5,601 nucleotides of DNA. Source: a virus (lineage: Duplodnaviria; Heunggongvirae; Uroviricota; Caudoviricetes). The stretch covers positions 1-5,601 of the IMG/VR virus record IMGVR_UViG_3300015185_000041, one strand, 5' to 3'. Under the pieces are notes generated by a model, which did no database searches, had not been told where the DNA came from, and saw nothing but the letters and a program-made list of their open reading frames with translations. This document shows, piece by piece, positions 265 to 5,601 of the stretch (position 1 is the first letter of the stretch; every line of letters begins with the position of its first letter). The position numbers and the translations under genes are program-made.

Positions 265-555
265 TTAACAGGTTTTGTTTGGATACTGTCTTCGTGAGTG
301 AACTACATTTACGATCTCGATGTTAGATGCTGTTACTCGGTAAAGTATTATGTAGTTAGGATGAGTCACTATCTCACGAAGACTTGGAACTCTTTCGCTC
401 GGTGGGTACAGATAAGGGTGTTCAGTAAGTGACAAAACTGATGTTTCAATGCGTATTTTTAGTCTACGTGCAGCGGGAGGGTTTTCCTTAGCAATATAGG
501 CTACGATCTGACGTAAATCATCACGTGCAGAAGGTAGCCATAAAATGGGCAGCAT
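265..555 (-). CDS. parE: ParE/RelE-superfamily type II toxin (96 aa)
   Basis: Size and motifs (LPILWLPSARDDL..., ...HPNYIILYRV..., ...IEIVNVVHSRRQYP) fit ParE-family toxins. Its ATG shares one base with the TAA stop of the upstream antitoxin ORF (TAATG), the typical antitoxin-then-toxin coupling. Confidence 0.75.
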   Translation of the reverse strand: MLPILWLPSARDDLRQIVAYIAKENPPAARRLKIRIETSVLSLTEHPYLYPPSERVPSLREIVTHPNYIILYRVTASNIEIVNVVHSRRQYPNKTC

Positions 556-746
556 TACTCACTCCTGTTCGTTGCAGCTAATTGAGCAATAAGGTTTTCC
601 ATTTCAGCCATTACTTCGTCATGTGGAATTGCAGGACGGGGATCTGAGAGGCTTGCTGCCACTTTGGTTCGCAACCATTCGTTATAGCTGTTTTCTTGTT
701 CGACTGTTTCAAATTCAGAAATTATCGGGGAAAGGGCTGTACTCAT
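555..746 (-). CDS. paaA: Small type II antitoxin (63 aa), PaaA/ParD-like
   Basis: 63-aa ORF directly upstream of and coupled to the ParE-like toxin. Strong RBS (GGAGG, about 7-nt spacer). It resembles, from memory, the PaaA antitoxins of PaaR-PaaA-ParE systems; the gene symbol is a recollection, not a search result. Confidence 0.6.
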   Translation of the reverse strand: MSTALSPIISEFETVEQENSYNEWLRTKVAASLSDPRPAIPHDEVMAEMENLIAQLAATNRSE

Positions 747-763
747 GTTTTTACCTCCTCAGA

Positions 764-1264
764 TTAGGCGCGACGACCCTTTTGCGCAGCTAGCCATCGC
801 GCAACGATTTCTTCAATTGATTCTTTTTTCTCCTTCATTTCCTTAAGCATTTTCTCTTTATCTTCTTTGGGGAAAGCCCTGAACGTCTGGAGCAAATCCC
901 GCTCCATGGGGTCTATATTAAACGGAAGTTCGTTTTCCGATTGTTCCATATCTGCAGATATAGTGACAACATTGTCCTCCCCAGATTCTTGGGGATACAT
1001 CCTTACAATTTGTAACAACTCGGCCATATCTGGTCTGATTGACTCGGGAGGAACTTGCAGCAACCCTGCGAACTTGATAACAGCCTCAAGATTTAAAGGT
1101 GTCTGACCATTTAGATAATGGCTTACAGCTCCCTGTGTCGAAAATCCCAGAATTTCTGCCGCACGCTCTTGGGTTAACCCTAGTTGATTTTTTTTCGCCG
1201 TCCAGATTTCTTTCAGTCTCTGGGCGGCTTGCAGGTCGATCTCTGACAGGGATTTTCTTTTCAT
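764..1264 (-). CDS. HTH (XRE/Cro-CI family) regulator, prophage repressor-like and PaaR-like; no S24 peptidase domain (166 aa)
   Basis: Helix-turn-helix motif LGLTQERAAEILGFSTQGAVSHYLNG in the N-terminal half. The C-terminal half is acidic and lysine-rich and lacks an Ala-Gly cleavage site or Ser/Lys peptidase motifs. It faces a cro-like gene across an operator-bearing intergenic region and sits 17 bp upstream of the antitoxin on the same strand. Confidence 0.75.
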   Translation of the reverse strand: MKRKSLSEIDLQAAQRLKEIWTAKKNQLGLTQERAAEILGFSTQGAVSHYLNGQTPLNLEAVIKFAGLLQVPPESIRPDMAELLQIVRMYPQESGEDNVVTISADMEQSENELPFNIDPMERDLLQTFRAFPKEDKEKMLKEMKEKKESIEEIVARWLAAQKGRRA

Positions 1265-2063: not shown

Positions 2064-3041
2064 GTGTTCGGGGGTTTTATGAGCAGCAAGCTTCATGGTC
2101 TTGTCTGGGAAGGGTGCGCCTTCACCGGCATGATCTTATCCAGGGTGGCGGTTATGGCCCGTCTTGCAGACTACAGCAATGACGAGGGCGTGTCATGGCC
2201 TGCCATTGAAACTATCCGGCGTCAGATCGGTGCAAGAAGTGAATCCACAGTGAAATCGGCTATTGCAGAACTGGCGAAAGAGGGCTGGCTGACGAAGGAA
2301 GAGCGTAAGGTCGGTGGGCGTAATGTAAGCAATATCTATCGGCTTAATGTGGAAAAACTCGAAGCAGCTGCGGCGGCGGCGCGTGAGTCATATAAACCGA
2401 AAAGAAAAATTAGCCCGGCAAAAAATGACCCGTTAACAGTTGACCCGTCAAATATTGACCCCTCAACGGTTGACCCGTCAAATTTTGATGGATCAACTGT
2501 TGATAAAAAACTGCCGATTAGGGGGCCGATGATTGACCCCGATCCGTCAGTATTAAAACCTGATCCGTCAGATAAAAGATCTTCTTGTCCGGACGCTTCG
2601 CAACCGGACCCGCAGACGGCTGAACAGGATTTTTTAACCCGACACCCTGACGCGGTTGTGTTCAGTGCGAAAAAACGCCAGTGGGGAAGTCAGGAAGATT
2701 TGGTGTGCGCACAGTGGATCTGGGGACGAATCGTGAGTCTTTACGAGCAGGCGGCCAGCTATGATGGCGAGATCACTAGACCGAAAGAACCCAACTGGAC
2801 AGCATGGGCCAATGACGTTCGCACAATGCGGATGCTGGATGGCAGAACTCACAGACAAATTTGTGAAATGTTTGGGCGTCTCCAGCGGGATTCGTTCTGG
2901 GTAAAAAACATCATGAGTCCGGCAAAACTCCGGGAAAAATGGGATGAACTGGTTATCCGCCTGGGGCGTTCGCCTGCGCAGCGTTGCGTGAATCACATTT
3001 CTGAACCGGACACTGAAATTCCGCCGGGCTTCAGGGGGTAA
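2064..3041 (+). CDS. Replication initiator / replisome organizer: N-terminal winged-HTH, iteron-encoded linker, C-terminal DnaT-like domain (325 aa)
   Basis: The ORF opens at GTG 2064; ATG 2079 (MSSKLHG...) preceded by GGGGG is an alternative start. The repetitive linker (DPLTVDPSNIDPSTVDPSNFDGSTVD) is encoded by tandem DNA repeats, as ori-lambda lies inside O. The C-terminal tail ...VNHISEPDTEIPPGFRG closely matches the recalled E. coli DnaT tail ...VNTVSEPDSQIPPGFRG. Confidence 0.75.
   Translation: MFGGFMSSKLHGLVWEGCAFTGMILSRVAVMARLADYSNDEGVSWPAIETIRRQIGARSESTVKSAIAELAKEGWLTKEERKVGGRNVSNIYRLNVEKLEAAAAAARESYKPKRKISPAKNDPLTVDPSNIDPSTVDPSNFDGSTVDKKLPIRGPMIDPDPSVLKPDPSDKRSSCPDASQPDPQTAEQDFLTRHPDAVVFSAKKRQWGSQEDLVCAQWIWGRIVSLYEQAASYDGEITRPKEPNWTAWANDVRTMRMLDGRTHRQICEMFGRLQRDSFWVKNIMSPAKLREKWDELVIRLGRSPAQRCVNHISEPDTEIPPGFRG
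2426..2515. repeat. Putative replication-origin iterons: five to six tandem 15-bp repeats (core TTGAC-CC-GTCAA)
   Basis: Head-to-tail 15-mers: TGACCCGTTAACAGT, TGACCCGTCAAATAT, TGACCCCTCAACGGT, TGACCCGTCAAATTT, TGATGGATCAACTGT, then a degenerate TGATAAAAAACTGCC. Related CCGTCAG copies occur at about 2541-2570. An A-rich tract (about 2395-2425) flanks them on the left. Confidence 0.7.
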
Positions 3042-4059: not shown

Positions 4060-4158
4060 AGGCTATAAACCGACTAACAACTAAATACTGAAGATTTAAA
4101 TCAGAAACGATTTTTATTAAATCCTTAACCGGAGGGATTCCTGCACCCTCAGAACATC

Positions 4159-4190
4159 AGGAGGCCGTCCGAAAGGGCGGTAGTGAAATG
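4159..4190 (+). promoter_or_regulatory. Translation-initiation element: SD AGGAGG, 16-nt hairpin with GAAA tetraloop, then AUG
   Basis: AGGAGG (4159-4164) lies 23 nt from ATG 4188. The stem CCGUCC-GAAA-GGGCGG (4165-4180, one G-U pair) fills the gap, leaving 7 unpaired nt before the AUG. A second hairpin GAGGG-(9 nt)-CCCTC lies at 4132-4150. Confidence 0.45.
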
Positions 4191-4370
4191 CGAAAATTCA
4201 AAATAATTATTGAAACGGGAATAGCCGGTGGAGATTTCGAGGATGAATTCGAAGTGGATGATGATGCAACACCAGATGAAATACAGGATGAAGCTAAAGA
4301 TATTTTCTTTAACTACTGCAATTACTCATACCACGAAATAAAAGACGAAGAGGAAGAACAAAATGGCTGA
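4188..4370 (+). CDS. Hypothetical very acidic small protein (60 aa)
   Basis: About 20 Asp/Glu against 4 Lys/Arg. Hydrophobic N-terminal strand (KFKIIIETGIAGG) then an acidic tail ending EEEEQNG. Confidence 0.6.
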   Translation: MRKFKIIIETGIAGGDFEDEFEVDDDATPDEIQDEAKDIFFNYCNYSYHEIKDEEEEQNG

Positions 4371-4539
4371 TTTTGGTTCAACTAAATATAACGCCAGTTT
4401 TGAAGAATGGCATGAACTGTTAATGGATTATGCAGAGTTACGCGGTGGAAGTGCCGCTGATGCTGAAGCATGGCGTGATGATTATGAAGCAGGAAAAACT
4501 CCGGTCGAAGCATATTGTGATGAGTGGGGCGATGAATGA
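4363..4539 (+). CDS. Hypothetical acidic small protein (58 aa, absent from the supplied ORF track)
   Basis: Hand translation from ATG 4363: MADFGSTKYNASFEEWHELLMDYAELRGGSAADAEAWRDDYEAGKTPVEAYCDEWGDE, stop TGA 4537-4539. Its start overlaps the upstream stop (ATGGCTGA) and its stop overlaps the next ATG (ATGA). Confidence 0.6.
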   Translation: MADFGSTKYNASFEEWHELLMDYAELRGGSAADAEAWRDDYEAGKTPVEAYCDEWGDE

Positions 4540-4793
4540 GCGAGGTTAATTATCAGGAAGGGCATGAAACGGCGGGGCAAGCAAAAACAGTGGCATGGCG
4601 ATATCGCTACGTGAAAAAAAAGGCGTTACGGACTTTCAGGGGAAGTAGTGGTCTGGTGACTGGAAATATGTACCGAAAAAAGAGGATTGTAACGACAGGC
4701 CGAACTATGAAATTCAGGCCTTATTCACTGCCCCGCCAGTCCCGGTTACATCAGAAGAACTGGTTAAAGCTGTGCACTTTTATGAACAACTAA
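4536..4793 (+). CDS. Hypothetical basic small protein (85 aa); reading frame uncertain, possibly disrupted
   Basis: ATG coupled to the upstream stop. The product is very basic and uses rare Arg codons, while a more protein-like frame with no start codon runs alongside at 4649-4852 (see findings). Confidence 0.35.
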   Translation: MSEVNYQEGHETAGQAKTVAWRYRYVKKKALRTFRGSSGLVTGNMYRKKRIVTTGRTMKFRPYSLPRQSRLHQKNWLKLCTFMNN

Positions 4794-5022
4794 AACGCGA
4801 AAATCCACCAGCATCCGGAAACCTGATTACAGATTCCCAGATAAGGCAATGAGCTACCTGGCGCAGAACGGGCTGATAAGTATGGGGAATGTTTTACGAT
4901 GAATATTTAGACTAAAGAGTTTGTAACGCTATGTAAGTGATTTTTTCTGGTTTAGATATTTATATGTCCGGCCAAATTGAGGTGTGTTTAAATGTAATTG
5001 CACATTGATTGTAGGAGGAATA

Positions 5023-5202
5023 ATGAAAAACGCATTGCAGTTTTTGTTTGTTGCGTTCTGGTTGTTCGTATCATGTATGCCCATCATCTTCACAGCAAGG
5101 TATATGGAAAAAGTTGATGTTTTGATATTAATATTTGGATATATAAATGCCCTTTTTTTAGGGGTGTTCATGGCGGTCATGTGCATTGAATACTGGCGGT
5201 AA
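5023..5202 (+). CDS. Small two-helix membrane protein (59 aa)
   Basis: ATG 5023 preceded by AGGAGG (5013-5018). Product MKNALQFLFVAFWLFVSCMPIIFTARYMEKVDVLILIFGYINALFLGVFMAVMCIEYWR has two hydrophobic helices. The track ORF 4984..5202 starts at an upstream GTG with no RBS. Confidence 0.6.
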   Translation: MKNALQFLFVAFWLFVSCMPIIFTARYMEKVDVLILIFGYINALFLGVFMAVMCIEYWR

Positions 5203-5257: not shown

Positions 5258-5460
5258 TTGCGGGGAAATCTTAGTTAAGTAGAATGACTGCGGGTGCTTG
5301 AGGCTATCTGTCTCAGGCATGAACACCAAAAGGCAGATAGAGAAAAGCCCCAGTTAACATTACGCGTCCTGCAAGACGCTTAACATTAATCTGAGGCCAT
5401 ATCTATGCGACACATAGAGATTAGCCTCTTACGGACCGAAAGGTCAAGGAGAAGCAGGCT
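5258..5460 (+). promoter_or_regulatory. Hok mRNA leader: candidate promoter and structured 5' UTR
   Basis: Candidate promoter: -35 TTGCGG (5258-5263), 16-bp spacer, -10 TAGAAT (5280-5285). 10-bp stem at 5304-5313 paired with 5331-5340, 17-nt loop. Hairpin 5402-5418 sequesters the AUG of the short upstream ORF. Confidence 0.4.
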
Positions 5461-5464
5461 ATGA
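5405..5464 (+). CDS. Short upstream ORF (19 aa) coupled to hok; possible Mok analogue
   Basis: ATG 5405 with GAGG 8 nt upstream; TGA stop overlaps the hok ATG (ATGA). Product MRHIEISLLRTERSRRSRL. Confidence 0.3.
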   Translation: MRHIEISLLRTERSRRSRL

Positions 5465-5601
5465 AGCAGCAAAAGGCGATGTTAATCGCCCTGATCGTCA
5501 TCTGTTTAACCGTCATTGTGACGGCACTGGTAACGAGGAAAGACCTCTGCGAGGTACGAATCCGAACCGGCCAGACGGAGGTCGCTGTCTTCACAGCTTA
5601 C
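5461..5601 (+). CDS. hok: Hok/Gef-family type I toxin, truncated by the window edge
   Basis: MKQQKAMLIALIVICLTVIVTALVTRKDLCEVRIRTGQTEVAVFTAY is near-identical to recalled HokD/HokC sequences. RBS AAGGAG with 9-nt spacer. About four codons are missing beyond position 5601. Confidence 0.85.
   Translation, partial: MKQQKAMLIALIVICLTVIVTALVTRKDLCEVRIRTGQTEVAVFTAY

What the first reader, a model, noticed from the sequence alone, without database searches (positions are those of the whole stretch)
4536..4902. Protein-like reading frame with no start codon, abutting an in-frame TAG and homopolymer tracts
The annotated frame (4536-4793) gives a very basic, rare-codon product. A second frame at 4649-4852 reads WSGDWKYVPKKEDCNDRPNYEIQALFTAPPVPVTSEELVKAVHFYEQLKRENPPASGNLITDSQIRQ, which looks more like real protein, but it has no ATG and is preceded by TAG at 4646-4648. 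The only upstream ATG in that frame (4595) gives a 17-codon ORF ending at the TAG. An A8 tract (4614-4621) and an A6 tract (4676-4681) lie at the junction. Options are a gene inactivated by a nonsense or single-base indel, slippage-dependent expression, or a sequencing error in a homopolymer.
Basis: seen in the sequence. Interest (0 to 1): 0.45.

Follow-up and report, generated by a model that had tools for sequence, protein, structure and literature searches.

The report
Decayed prophage gene (multi-lesion pseudogene)
This stretch is the wreck of a small prophage gene of unknown function, broken by two extra A's, a stop codon and a frame-shifting deletion; the same dead copy sits in hundreds of E. 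coli genomes, so it is an ordinary pseudogene.

Summary
Window 4536-4902 is the remnant of a 171-aa lambdoid-prophage gene (PHROG 660, no Pfam family, function unknown). An intact copy exists in E. coli NCTC11151.

Compared with that copy the window shows four changes:
- an A6 run expanded to A8 (4614-4621), which shifts frame 0 into frame 2;
- TAG at 4646-4648 in place of a sense codon;
- a 90-bp in-frame deletion near 4801/4802, which on its own is harmless;
- a 61-bp frame-shifting deletion near 4815/4816, which leaves the old C-terminus and its stop (4900-4902) in frame 1.

The "protein-like" frame-2 stretch is therefore the ancestral reading frame. The annotated 85-aa ORF is a chimera created by the frameshift.

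The lesions are real, not sequencing errors. The exact A8+TAG allele occurs in 339 of 5,426 complete E. coli genomes. A7+TAG occurs in 61 and A6+TAG in 424. NCBI's PGAP annotation pipeline already flags the locus as "frameshifted; internal stop".

The A8 run does form a classic A_AAA_AAG slippery heptamer, and a -1 slip there would re-enter the old frame. But the TAG follows eight codons later, so slippage cannot rescue the protein.

Verdict: ordinary, already-annotated pseudogene. Low interest.

The parts
4536..4902 (+). Whole pseudogene remnant, from the ancestral ATG to the ancestral TGA stop. Its pieces lie in three reading frames.
   Evidence: Alignment with the intact 171-aa gene of E. 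coli NCTC11151 (L003 1737-2252) and eight other alleles. PGAP marks the equivalent CDS as a pseudogene, 'frameshifted; internal stop', in EC958, WB61, EH01, PRO_A, G4/9, CFT073, 005008 and W.
4536..4613 (+). Undamaged N-terminal 26 codons in frame 0 (MSEVNYQEGHETAGQAKTVAWRYRYV). The ATG overlaps the stop of the upstream gene (ATGA at 4536-4539).
   Evidence: Nearly identical to the N-terminus of the intact homologues (2 of 26 residues differ from NCTC11151).
4614..4621 (+). A8 run where the ancestor has A6. This +2 insertion moves the ancestral reading frame from frame 0 to frame 2. Together with G4622 it forms A_AAA_AAG in frame 0.
   Evidence: All four intact or non-TAG alleles of this gene arrangement that were checked have A6. 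TAG alleles have A6, A7 or A8.
4622..4645 (+). Eight ancestral codons in frame 2 (GVTDFQGK) between the A run and the nonsense codon.
4646..4648 (+). TAG nonsense codon in the ancestral frame. Homologues have CCG (Pro), CTG (Leu), or Gln, Met, Arg or Ala at this position.
4649..4852 (+). Frame-2 stretch. It holds 67 ancestral-frame codons and ends at a TGA (4850-4852) that comes into frame only because of the 61-bp deletion.
   Evidence: PHROG 660 match at E = 1.2e-16. Alignments. dN/dS of 0.14-0.44 in this frame.
4802..4811 (+). Junction of the 90-bp in-frame deletion, lying in the repeat AATCC(G/A)CCAG that flanks the lost segment (ENPP...DNPP) in intact genes.
   Evidence: A 141-aa homologue (P0035) carries the same 30-aa gap and is otherwise open, so this deletion alone does not inactivate the gene.
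4815..4818 (+). Junction of a 61-bp deletion relative to the intact gene (57 bp relative to the G4/9-type dead allele). It shifts the remaining C-terminus into frame 1.
4816..4902 (+). Frame-1 remnant of the ancestral C-terminus (...KPDYRFPDKAMSYLAQNGLISMGNVLR*), with the stop at 4900-4902.
   Evidence: frame-1 translation. It aligns with ...QPDCKLPEKAMDYLKRNGLISVEDVLR* of the intact protein.
4536..4793 (+). The annotated 85-aa ORF. It is a chimera of 28 real N-terminal codons and 57 out-of-frame codons, and is not a conserved gene.
   Evidence: pI is 11.1, and the same frame carries stops in all six intact homologues. It is annotated as 'hypothetical protein' in phage record ON470612 and occurs on at least 1000 contigs.

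Best explanation
Window 4536-4902 is a dead copy of a small accessory gene of the early region of Rac/Qin-like lambdoid prophages of E. coli. The ancestor encoded about 171 aa, belongs to PHROG 660, and has no known function.

Shown: relative to intact copies the window carries
1. a +2 expansion of an A6 run to A8, which moves the true frame from frame 0 to frame 2;
2. a TAG nonsense codon eight codons later;
3. a 90-bp in-frame deletion between short direct repeats;
4. a 61-bp frame-shifting deletion that strands the old C-terminus and stop codon in frame 1.

Shown: the frame-2 'protein-like' stretch is the ancestral coding frame, and the annotated 85-aa ORF is a by-product of the frameshift.

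Inferred: the nonsense mutation came first. TAG occurs with A6, A7 and A8, whereas the four non-TAG alleles of this arrangement that were checked have A6. The A run then drifted by replication slippage in a gene that was already dead. Also inferred: because the start codon is still coupled to the upstream gene (ATGA overlap), at most a basic junk peptide of 85 aa is made, or about 36 aa after a -1 slip.
For: - An intact 171-aa homologue exists, and base-by-base alignment locates all four lesions.
- The allele series is:
  - intact (NCTC11151);
  - 1-bp deletion giving 129 aa (C9, ATCC 25922);
  - A6, no TAG, both deletions, giving 104 aa (23AR0303);
  - A6+TAG (G4/9, W);
  - A7+TAG (EH01);
  - A8+TAG (window, EC958, WB61, PRO_A, CFT073).
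- Exact-allele counts among 5,426 complete genomes are A8+TAG 339, A7+TAG 61, A6+TAG 424 and intact-type 165.
- PGAP labels the locus 'frameshifted; internal stop' in eight genomes examined.
- The frame-2 stretch matches PHROG 660 at E = 1.2e-16. The 85-aa ORF matches only through its first 31 residues, at E = 0.006.
- The family is large: 1,611 database proteins at E <= 0.001, with many intact 171-aa members.
- dN/dS is 0.14-0.44 in the ancestral frame over a 73-codon core that spans the A run and the TAG.
- The frame used by the 85-aa ORF has stops in all six intact homologues.
- No start codon usable for the frame-2 stretch exists.
Against: - Nothing in the data contradicts the pseudogene reading.
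- The order of mutations is inferred from a sample of 13 sequenced alleles and four exact-match counts, not from a phylogeny.
- The function of the intact gene is unknown, so what was lost cannot be stated.
- Expression was not measured.
- The dead allele is very widespread, in at least 824 complete genomes. That could be read as retention for some reason, but inheritance and recombination of a common prophage module explain it equally well.
Confidence: 0.95

Rival explanations
1. Slippage-dependent expression. The A8 run forms A_AAA_AAG in frame 0, so a programmed -1 ribosomal frameshift, or transcriptional slippage on the A run, would move ribosomes into frame 2 and make the real protein.
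For: GTG AAA AAA AAG places the A_AAA_AAG heptamer exactly in frame 0, and a -1 slip lands in the ancestral frame 2. A_AAA_AAG is an established -1 frameshift motif in E. coli genes and IS elements (PMC4066793).
Against: - TAG at 4646-4648 stops the -1 frame after eight codons, so the slip product would be about 36 aa and never reaches 4649-4852.
- The heptamer is not conserved. The same dead lineage has A6, A7 and A8, and intact genes have A6 and need no slip.
- The 79 nt after the motif fold no better than shuffled sequence (z = -0.28).
- The C-terminus is further frameshifted by the 61-bp deletion.
Confidence: 0.02
2. Sequencing or assembly error in a homopolymer. The gene would really be intact, and the A8 run would be a miscalled A6 or A9.
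For: Homopolymer length errors are common in some sequencing chemistries (general knowledge). A7 and A8 variants both exist.
Against: - The identical 85-nt A8+TAG segment is found in 339 independently sequenced complete genomes, including CFT073 and EC958, and in two phage records.
- Correcting the run would still leave the TAG and the 61-bp deletion.
Confidence: 0.01
3. The annotated 85-aa frame-0 ORF (4536-4793) is a genuine new gene that arose by frameshift and is now maintained.
For: It is open and starts at a start codon coupled to the upstream gene. Its exact product is annotated on at least 1000 contigs and in phage records.
Against: - Its last 57 residues are out of frame relative to a conserved protein. 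They have pI 12.0 with no acidic residue, and 10 of the 57 codons are rare.
- The same frame has stops in all six intact homologues.
- A6 and A7 alleles of the same dead lineage do not encode it.
- Only its first 31 residues match any family.
Confidence: 0.02

Closest known systems
Prophage pseudogenes as flagged by NCBI PGAP ('frameshifted; internal stop')
   Same: The same locus and the same lesions are already flagged as a pseudogene in RefSeq records of CFT073, EC958, WB61, W and others.
   Different: Nothing material. The window's source annotation, like some phage records, calls the 85-aa chimeric ORF instead of flagging the pseudogene.
PHROG 660 / the 171-aa 'hypothetical protein' family of E. 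coli lambdoid prophages (e.g. WP_059338087.1)
   Same: The reconstructed window protein is colinear with the family and closely similar over the conserved core VAWRYRYVKKGVTDFQ..WxGDWKYVPTKEDCNDRPNYEIQALF...KAVRFYEQVKRENPP.
   Different: The window copy is not an open gene. The family itself is mosaic: alternative N-terminal leaders, and C-termini shared with DUF551 and ead/Ea22-like proteins. It has no Pfam family and no informative fold match.
Programmed -1 ribosomal frameshifting at A_AAA_AAG (dnaX, IS elements)
   Same: The identical slippery heptamer sits in the zero frame, and the -1 frame is the ancestral frame (PMC4066793).
   Different: There is no useful -1 ORF, because TAG follows after eight codons. 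There is no stimulatory structure and no conservation of the motif. It looks like a by-product of homopolymer drift.
Slipped-strand (homopolymer) mutation, as in contingency loci and phase variation
   Same: A run of A's varies in length (6, 7 or 8) between strains.
   Different: In the alleles examined, the variation is seen only on a background already inactivated by a nonsense codon, so it cannot switch anything on or off.

Membership tests
Pseudogene of a protein-coding gene | Intact homologues exist that define the ancestral reading frame | tested here: met
   A 171-aa ORF in NCTC11151 and many 171-aa database proteins.
Pseudogene of a protein-coding gene | Frameshift relative to the intact homologues | tested here: met
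   A6 to A8 (+2) at 4614-4621, and a 61-bp deletion at about 4815/4816.
Pseudogene of a protein-coding gene | Premature stop codon in the ancestral frame | tested here: met
   TAG at 4646-4648 where homologues have CCG or CTG.
Pseudogene of a protein-coding gene | Lesions are real rather than sequencing artefacts | tested here: met
   The exact allele is present in 339 complete genomes.
PHROG 660 prophage protein family | Significant profile match | tested here: met
   Frame-2 stretch E = 1.2e-16; intact homologue E = 5.8e-74.
PHROG 660 prophage protein family | Uninterrupted coding sequence | tested here: not met
   The remnants lie in three frames with an internal TAG.
Programmed -1 ribosomal frameshift site | X_XXZ_ZZN slippery heptamer in the zero frame | tested here: met
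   A_AAA_AAG at 4616-4622 in the frame of ATG 4536.
Programmed -1 ribosomal frameshift site | Extended open -1 frame encoding a functional product | tested here: not met
   The -1 frame ends at TAG after eight codons.
Programmed -1 ribosomal frameshift site | Downstream stimulatory RNA structure | tested here: not met
   Minimum free energy -14.6 kcal/mol, z = -0.28 against shuffles for 4622-4700.
Programmed -1 ribosomal frameshift site | Conservation of the motif among homologues | tested here: not met
   A6, A7 and A8 are polymorphic, and intact genes have A6 with no shift needed.
Programmed -1 ribosomal frameshift site | Measured frameshifting in vivo | not testable with these tools
   Needs a reporter assay.

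The most novel reading that the evidence does not exclude
The A8 expansion created a perfect A_AAA_AAG heptamer whose -1 slip exactly compensates the +2 insertion. The locus would then yield two short peptides from one start: 85 aa in frame 0 and about 36 aa in frame -1. In an amber-suppressing background, or after reversion of the TAG, slippage could give a protein extending through the frame-2 stretch (104 aa, the length of the 23AR0303 ORF plus one Lys). If any of these products had a function, this would be a 'savior' frameshift in a prophage accessory gene. Nothing here supports a function.
Probability: 0.02. Interest if true: 0.3.

Novelty: already known. Interest (0 to 1): 0.07.

Why it matters
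It matters only for annotation hygiene. The 85-aa "hypothetical protein" called at 4536-4793 is present on at least 1000 public contigs and in phage records. It is a frameshift chimera and should be replaced by a pseudogene feature spanning 4536-4902. The allele series, from intact through a nonsense mutation to homopolymer drift and deletions, is a tidy textbook example of stepwise decay of a dispensable prophage gene. It opens no new biological question.

Tried and rejected
- Pfam scan of the intact homologue, the frame-2 stretch and the 85-aa ORF found no family.
- AlphaFold2 on a 32-sequence alignment of the intact protein gave mean pLDDT 59. Only a small beta domain (residues about 11-65) is confident. 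The window's frameshift (codon 28) and TAG (codon 37) both fall inside it.
- Foldseek against viral models and the PDB found nothing at E <= 0.001. The weak viral hits were an Ead/Ea22-like protein and N15 gp45. No function could be assigned.
- Rfam found no RNA family in 4536-4902; the only hit in the window is sok at 5292-5463.
- The promoter and terminator scan of 4300-5100 found nothing above shuffle expectation and nothing on the + strand.
- A frameshift-stimulating RNA structure was rejected.
- A search with the whole window did not find the source genome (best hit 92% coverage at 99.1% identity), so the prophage is a mosaic not exactly represented in the collection.
- Reinitiation after the TAG was rejected: the first in-frame start codon after it leaves fewer than 30 codons.

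Full report
**Observation.** All of them hold:
- ORF 4536-4793 encodes 85 aa.
- Frame 2 from 4649 reads WSGDWKYVPKKEDCNDRPNYEIQALFTAPPVPVTSEELVKAVHFYEQLKRENPPASGNLITDSQIRQ and stops at 4850-4852.
- TAG sits at 4646-4648.
- The only upstream in-frame ATG (4595) opens a 17-codon ORF that ends at that TAG.
- A8 is at 4614-4621 and A6 at 4676-4681.

The 85-aa product is very basic: pI 11.1 overall, and pI 12.0 with no acidic residue in its last 57 residues. It is also enriched in rare codons (10 of 57 after the A run, against 5 of 68 in the frame-2 stretch).

**What it is.** Megablast of 4300-5000 against 5,426 complete E. coli genomes found the segment in 2,247 of them and in 15 phage records.
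- In EC958, WB61, EH01, PRO_A, G4/9, CFT073, strain 005008 and E. coli W, NCBI's PGAP annotation pipeline marks the equivalent CDS as a pseudogene, "frameshifted; internal stop".
- In NCTC11151 the same position holds an intact 171-aa ORF, WP_059338087.1.
- That protein matches PHROG 660 (unknown function) at E = 5.8e-74 and has no Pfam family.
- The window's frame-2 stretch matches the same PHROG at E = 1.2e-16. The 85-aa ORF matches only through its first 31 residues, at E = 0.006.
- A search of 5.8 billion proteins returned 1,611 relatives. Many are 171 aa. Others are mosaics with different N-terminal leaders or with DUF551 or ead/Ea22-like C-termini.

**Where the frame was lost.** Nucleotide alignments locate four differences from the intact gene.
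1. GTG-AAAAAA-G has become GTG-AAAAAAAA-G at 4614-4621. The two extra A's move the ancestral frame from frame 0 to frame 2.
2. The codon at 4646-4648 is TAG. Homologues have CCG or CTG there or, at protein level, Gln, Met, Arg or Ala. A Gln (CAG) intermediate would make this a single transition, but that is an inference.
3. Ninety base pairs are missing after about 4801, between two copies of AATCC(G/A)CCAG. This is in frame, and a 141-aa homologue (P0035) carries the same 30-residue gap in an otherwise open gene. This change alone is not inactivating.
4. Sixty-one base pairs are missing at about 4815/4816. This throws the last 28 or so codons and the original stop into frame 1.

The A6 run at 4676-4681 differs from homologues by a substitution (ACA to AAA) and is irrelevant to the frame loss.

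Over a 73-codon core that spans the A run, the TAG and most of the frame-2 stretch, pairwise comparisons among homologues gave dN/dS of 0.14-0.44 in the ancestral frame. These included mEp460, a plasmid copy, an STEC prophage, and a phage record labelled Actinobacillus phage pPE4. The frame that the 85-aa ORF uses after the run contains one or more stop codons in all six intact homologues. The conserved frame is therefore frame 0 followed by frame 2, and the 85-aa ORF is a chimera.

**Real lesion or artefact.** Exact-match counts for the 83-85-nt segment covering the run and the TAG were:

| Allele | Complete genomes | Examples |
|---|---|---|
| A8+TAG | 339 | CFT073 |
| A7+TAG | 61 | |
| A6+TAG | 424 | ATCC 8739 |
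| Intact-type A6+CCG | 165 | |

EC958 (A8+TAG) and E. coli W (A6+TAG) carry the same run and codon states. The exact 85-aa product is on at least 1000 contigs, and the 36-aa product of the A6+TAG allele is on 381. This rules out sequencing error. In the 13 alleles read directly, TAG occurs with A6, A7 and A8, whereas the four non-TAG alleles of this gene arrangement all have A6. The simplest order is the nonsense mutation first, then neutral drift of the homopolymer by replication slippage. This order is inferred, not shown by a phylogeny.

**Slippage.** The A8 run creates GTG AAA AAA AAG, which is the A_AAA_AAG heptamer in the zero frame. A -1 slip there would land in the ancestral frame. This heptamer is a proven -1 frameshift motif in E. 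coli (PMC4066793). Four things argue against any role:
- The -1 frame ends at TAG after eight codons.
- The following 79 nt fold no better than shuffles (z = -0.28).
- The motif is absent from intact genes and polymorphic in dead ones.
- The C-terminus is frameshifted again.

Slippage therefore cannot produce the frame-2 protein. At most the locus yields a junk peptide of 85 aa or about 36 aa. The start codon is still coupled to the upstream gene by an ATGA overlap at 4536-4539.

**Function of the ancestor.** An AlphaFold2 model built from a 32-sequence alignment was of low confidence overall (pLDDT 59). Only a small beta domain at residues about 11-65 was confident, and the window's frameshift and TAG both fall inside it. 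Foldseek against viral models and the PDB gave nothing at E <= 0.001. The function stays unknown. The gene is evidently dispensable, because two phage records (vB_EcoS-640R1 and vB_EcoS-813R8) match the window's 701-nt segment at full length and 98.7% identity with no length difference. The one examined, vB_EcoS-640R1, annotates the 85-aa chimeric ORF at the equivalent position.

**Context.** The window is the early region of a mosaic Rac/Qin-like lambdoid prophage. In order it carries:
- a PaaA2/ParE toxin-antitoxin pair;
- an HTH repressor and a cro-like gene;
- a YdaT-family gene;
- an O-like replication gene with internal repeats;
- a DUF977 gene and small accessory genes;
- this pseudogene;
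- sok/hokD.

No genome in the collection matches the whole window exactly.

**Verdict.** This is a multiply disrupted pseudogene that RefSeq already flags as such. Novelty: already known. Interest: low.

Noticed in passing
window 5023-5202 (+) versus 4929-5186 (-): A 59-aa, strongly hydrophobic ORF (MKNALQFLFVAFWLFVSCMPIIFTARYMEKVDVLILIFGYINALFLGVFMAVMCIEYWR) follows a strong AGGAGG ribosome-binding site (5013-5018). PGAP leaves it unannotated in EC958 and CFT073. Phage record ON470612 instead annotates an ORF on the opposite strand there as 'hornerin', which looks like a mis-annotation. The ORF has no Pfam match. The DNA is conserved in the related loci aligned.
   Followed up: partly
window 5292-5463 (+) and 5461-5601 (+): A full-length match to the Rfam sok antitoxin family (RF01794, 106.7 bits) lies immediately upstream of and overlapping the start of hokD, which runs off the window end. 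This is a type I toxin-antitoxin module.
   Followed up: partly
window 265-1264 (-): A ParE-family toxin (265-555), a PaaA2-type antitoxin (555-746) and an adjacent 166-aa HTH protein (764-1264) sit in the position of the prophage repressor. From memory, the arrangement resembles the three-component paaR2-paaA2-parE2 module of O157 cryptic prophages. That resemblance was not tested.
   Followed up: no
window 2405-2479 (+), inside the O-like gene 2079-3041: Four copies of a unit spaced 15 bp apart and containing TTGACCC encode the repeated peptide VDPSN. They look like replication-origin iterons embedded in the initiator gene, as in lambda O. Not tested further.
   Followed up: partly
L008 and L009 (E. 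coli C9 and ATCC 25922), locus 537-926: A different, independent decay allele of the same gene. A 1-bp deletion (GGGTAAAGCC to GGGT-AAGCC) gives a 129-aa product with a frameshifted tail. PGAP annotates it as a normal protein (WP_001556926.1), and it is present on 856 contigs.
   Followed up: partly
L017 (PP818812.1, 'Actinobacillus phage vB_Apl-pPE4'): A phage record attributed to Actinobacillus pleuropneumoniae shares 91% nucleotide identity with this E. coli prophage segment over 511 bases. That is unexpected for the stated host. It suggests either an E. coli-derived phage or contamination, or very recent transfer.
   Followed up: no
window 4153-4181 (+): A short hairpin with a GAAA loop (GCCGTCC-GAAA-GGGCGGT) lies just upstream of the ATG of ORF 4188-4370, next to a GGAGG. 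This was seen by eye only and not evaluated.
   Followed up: no
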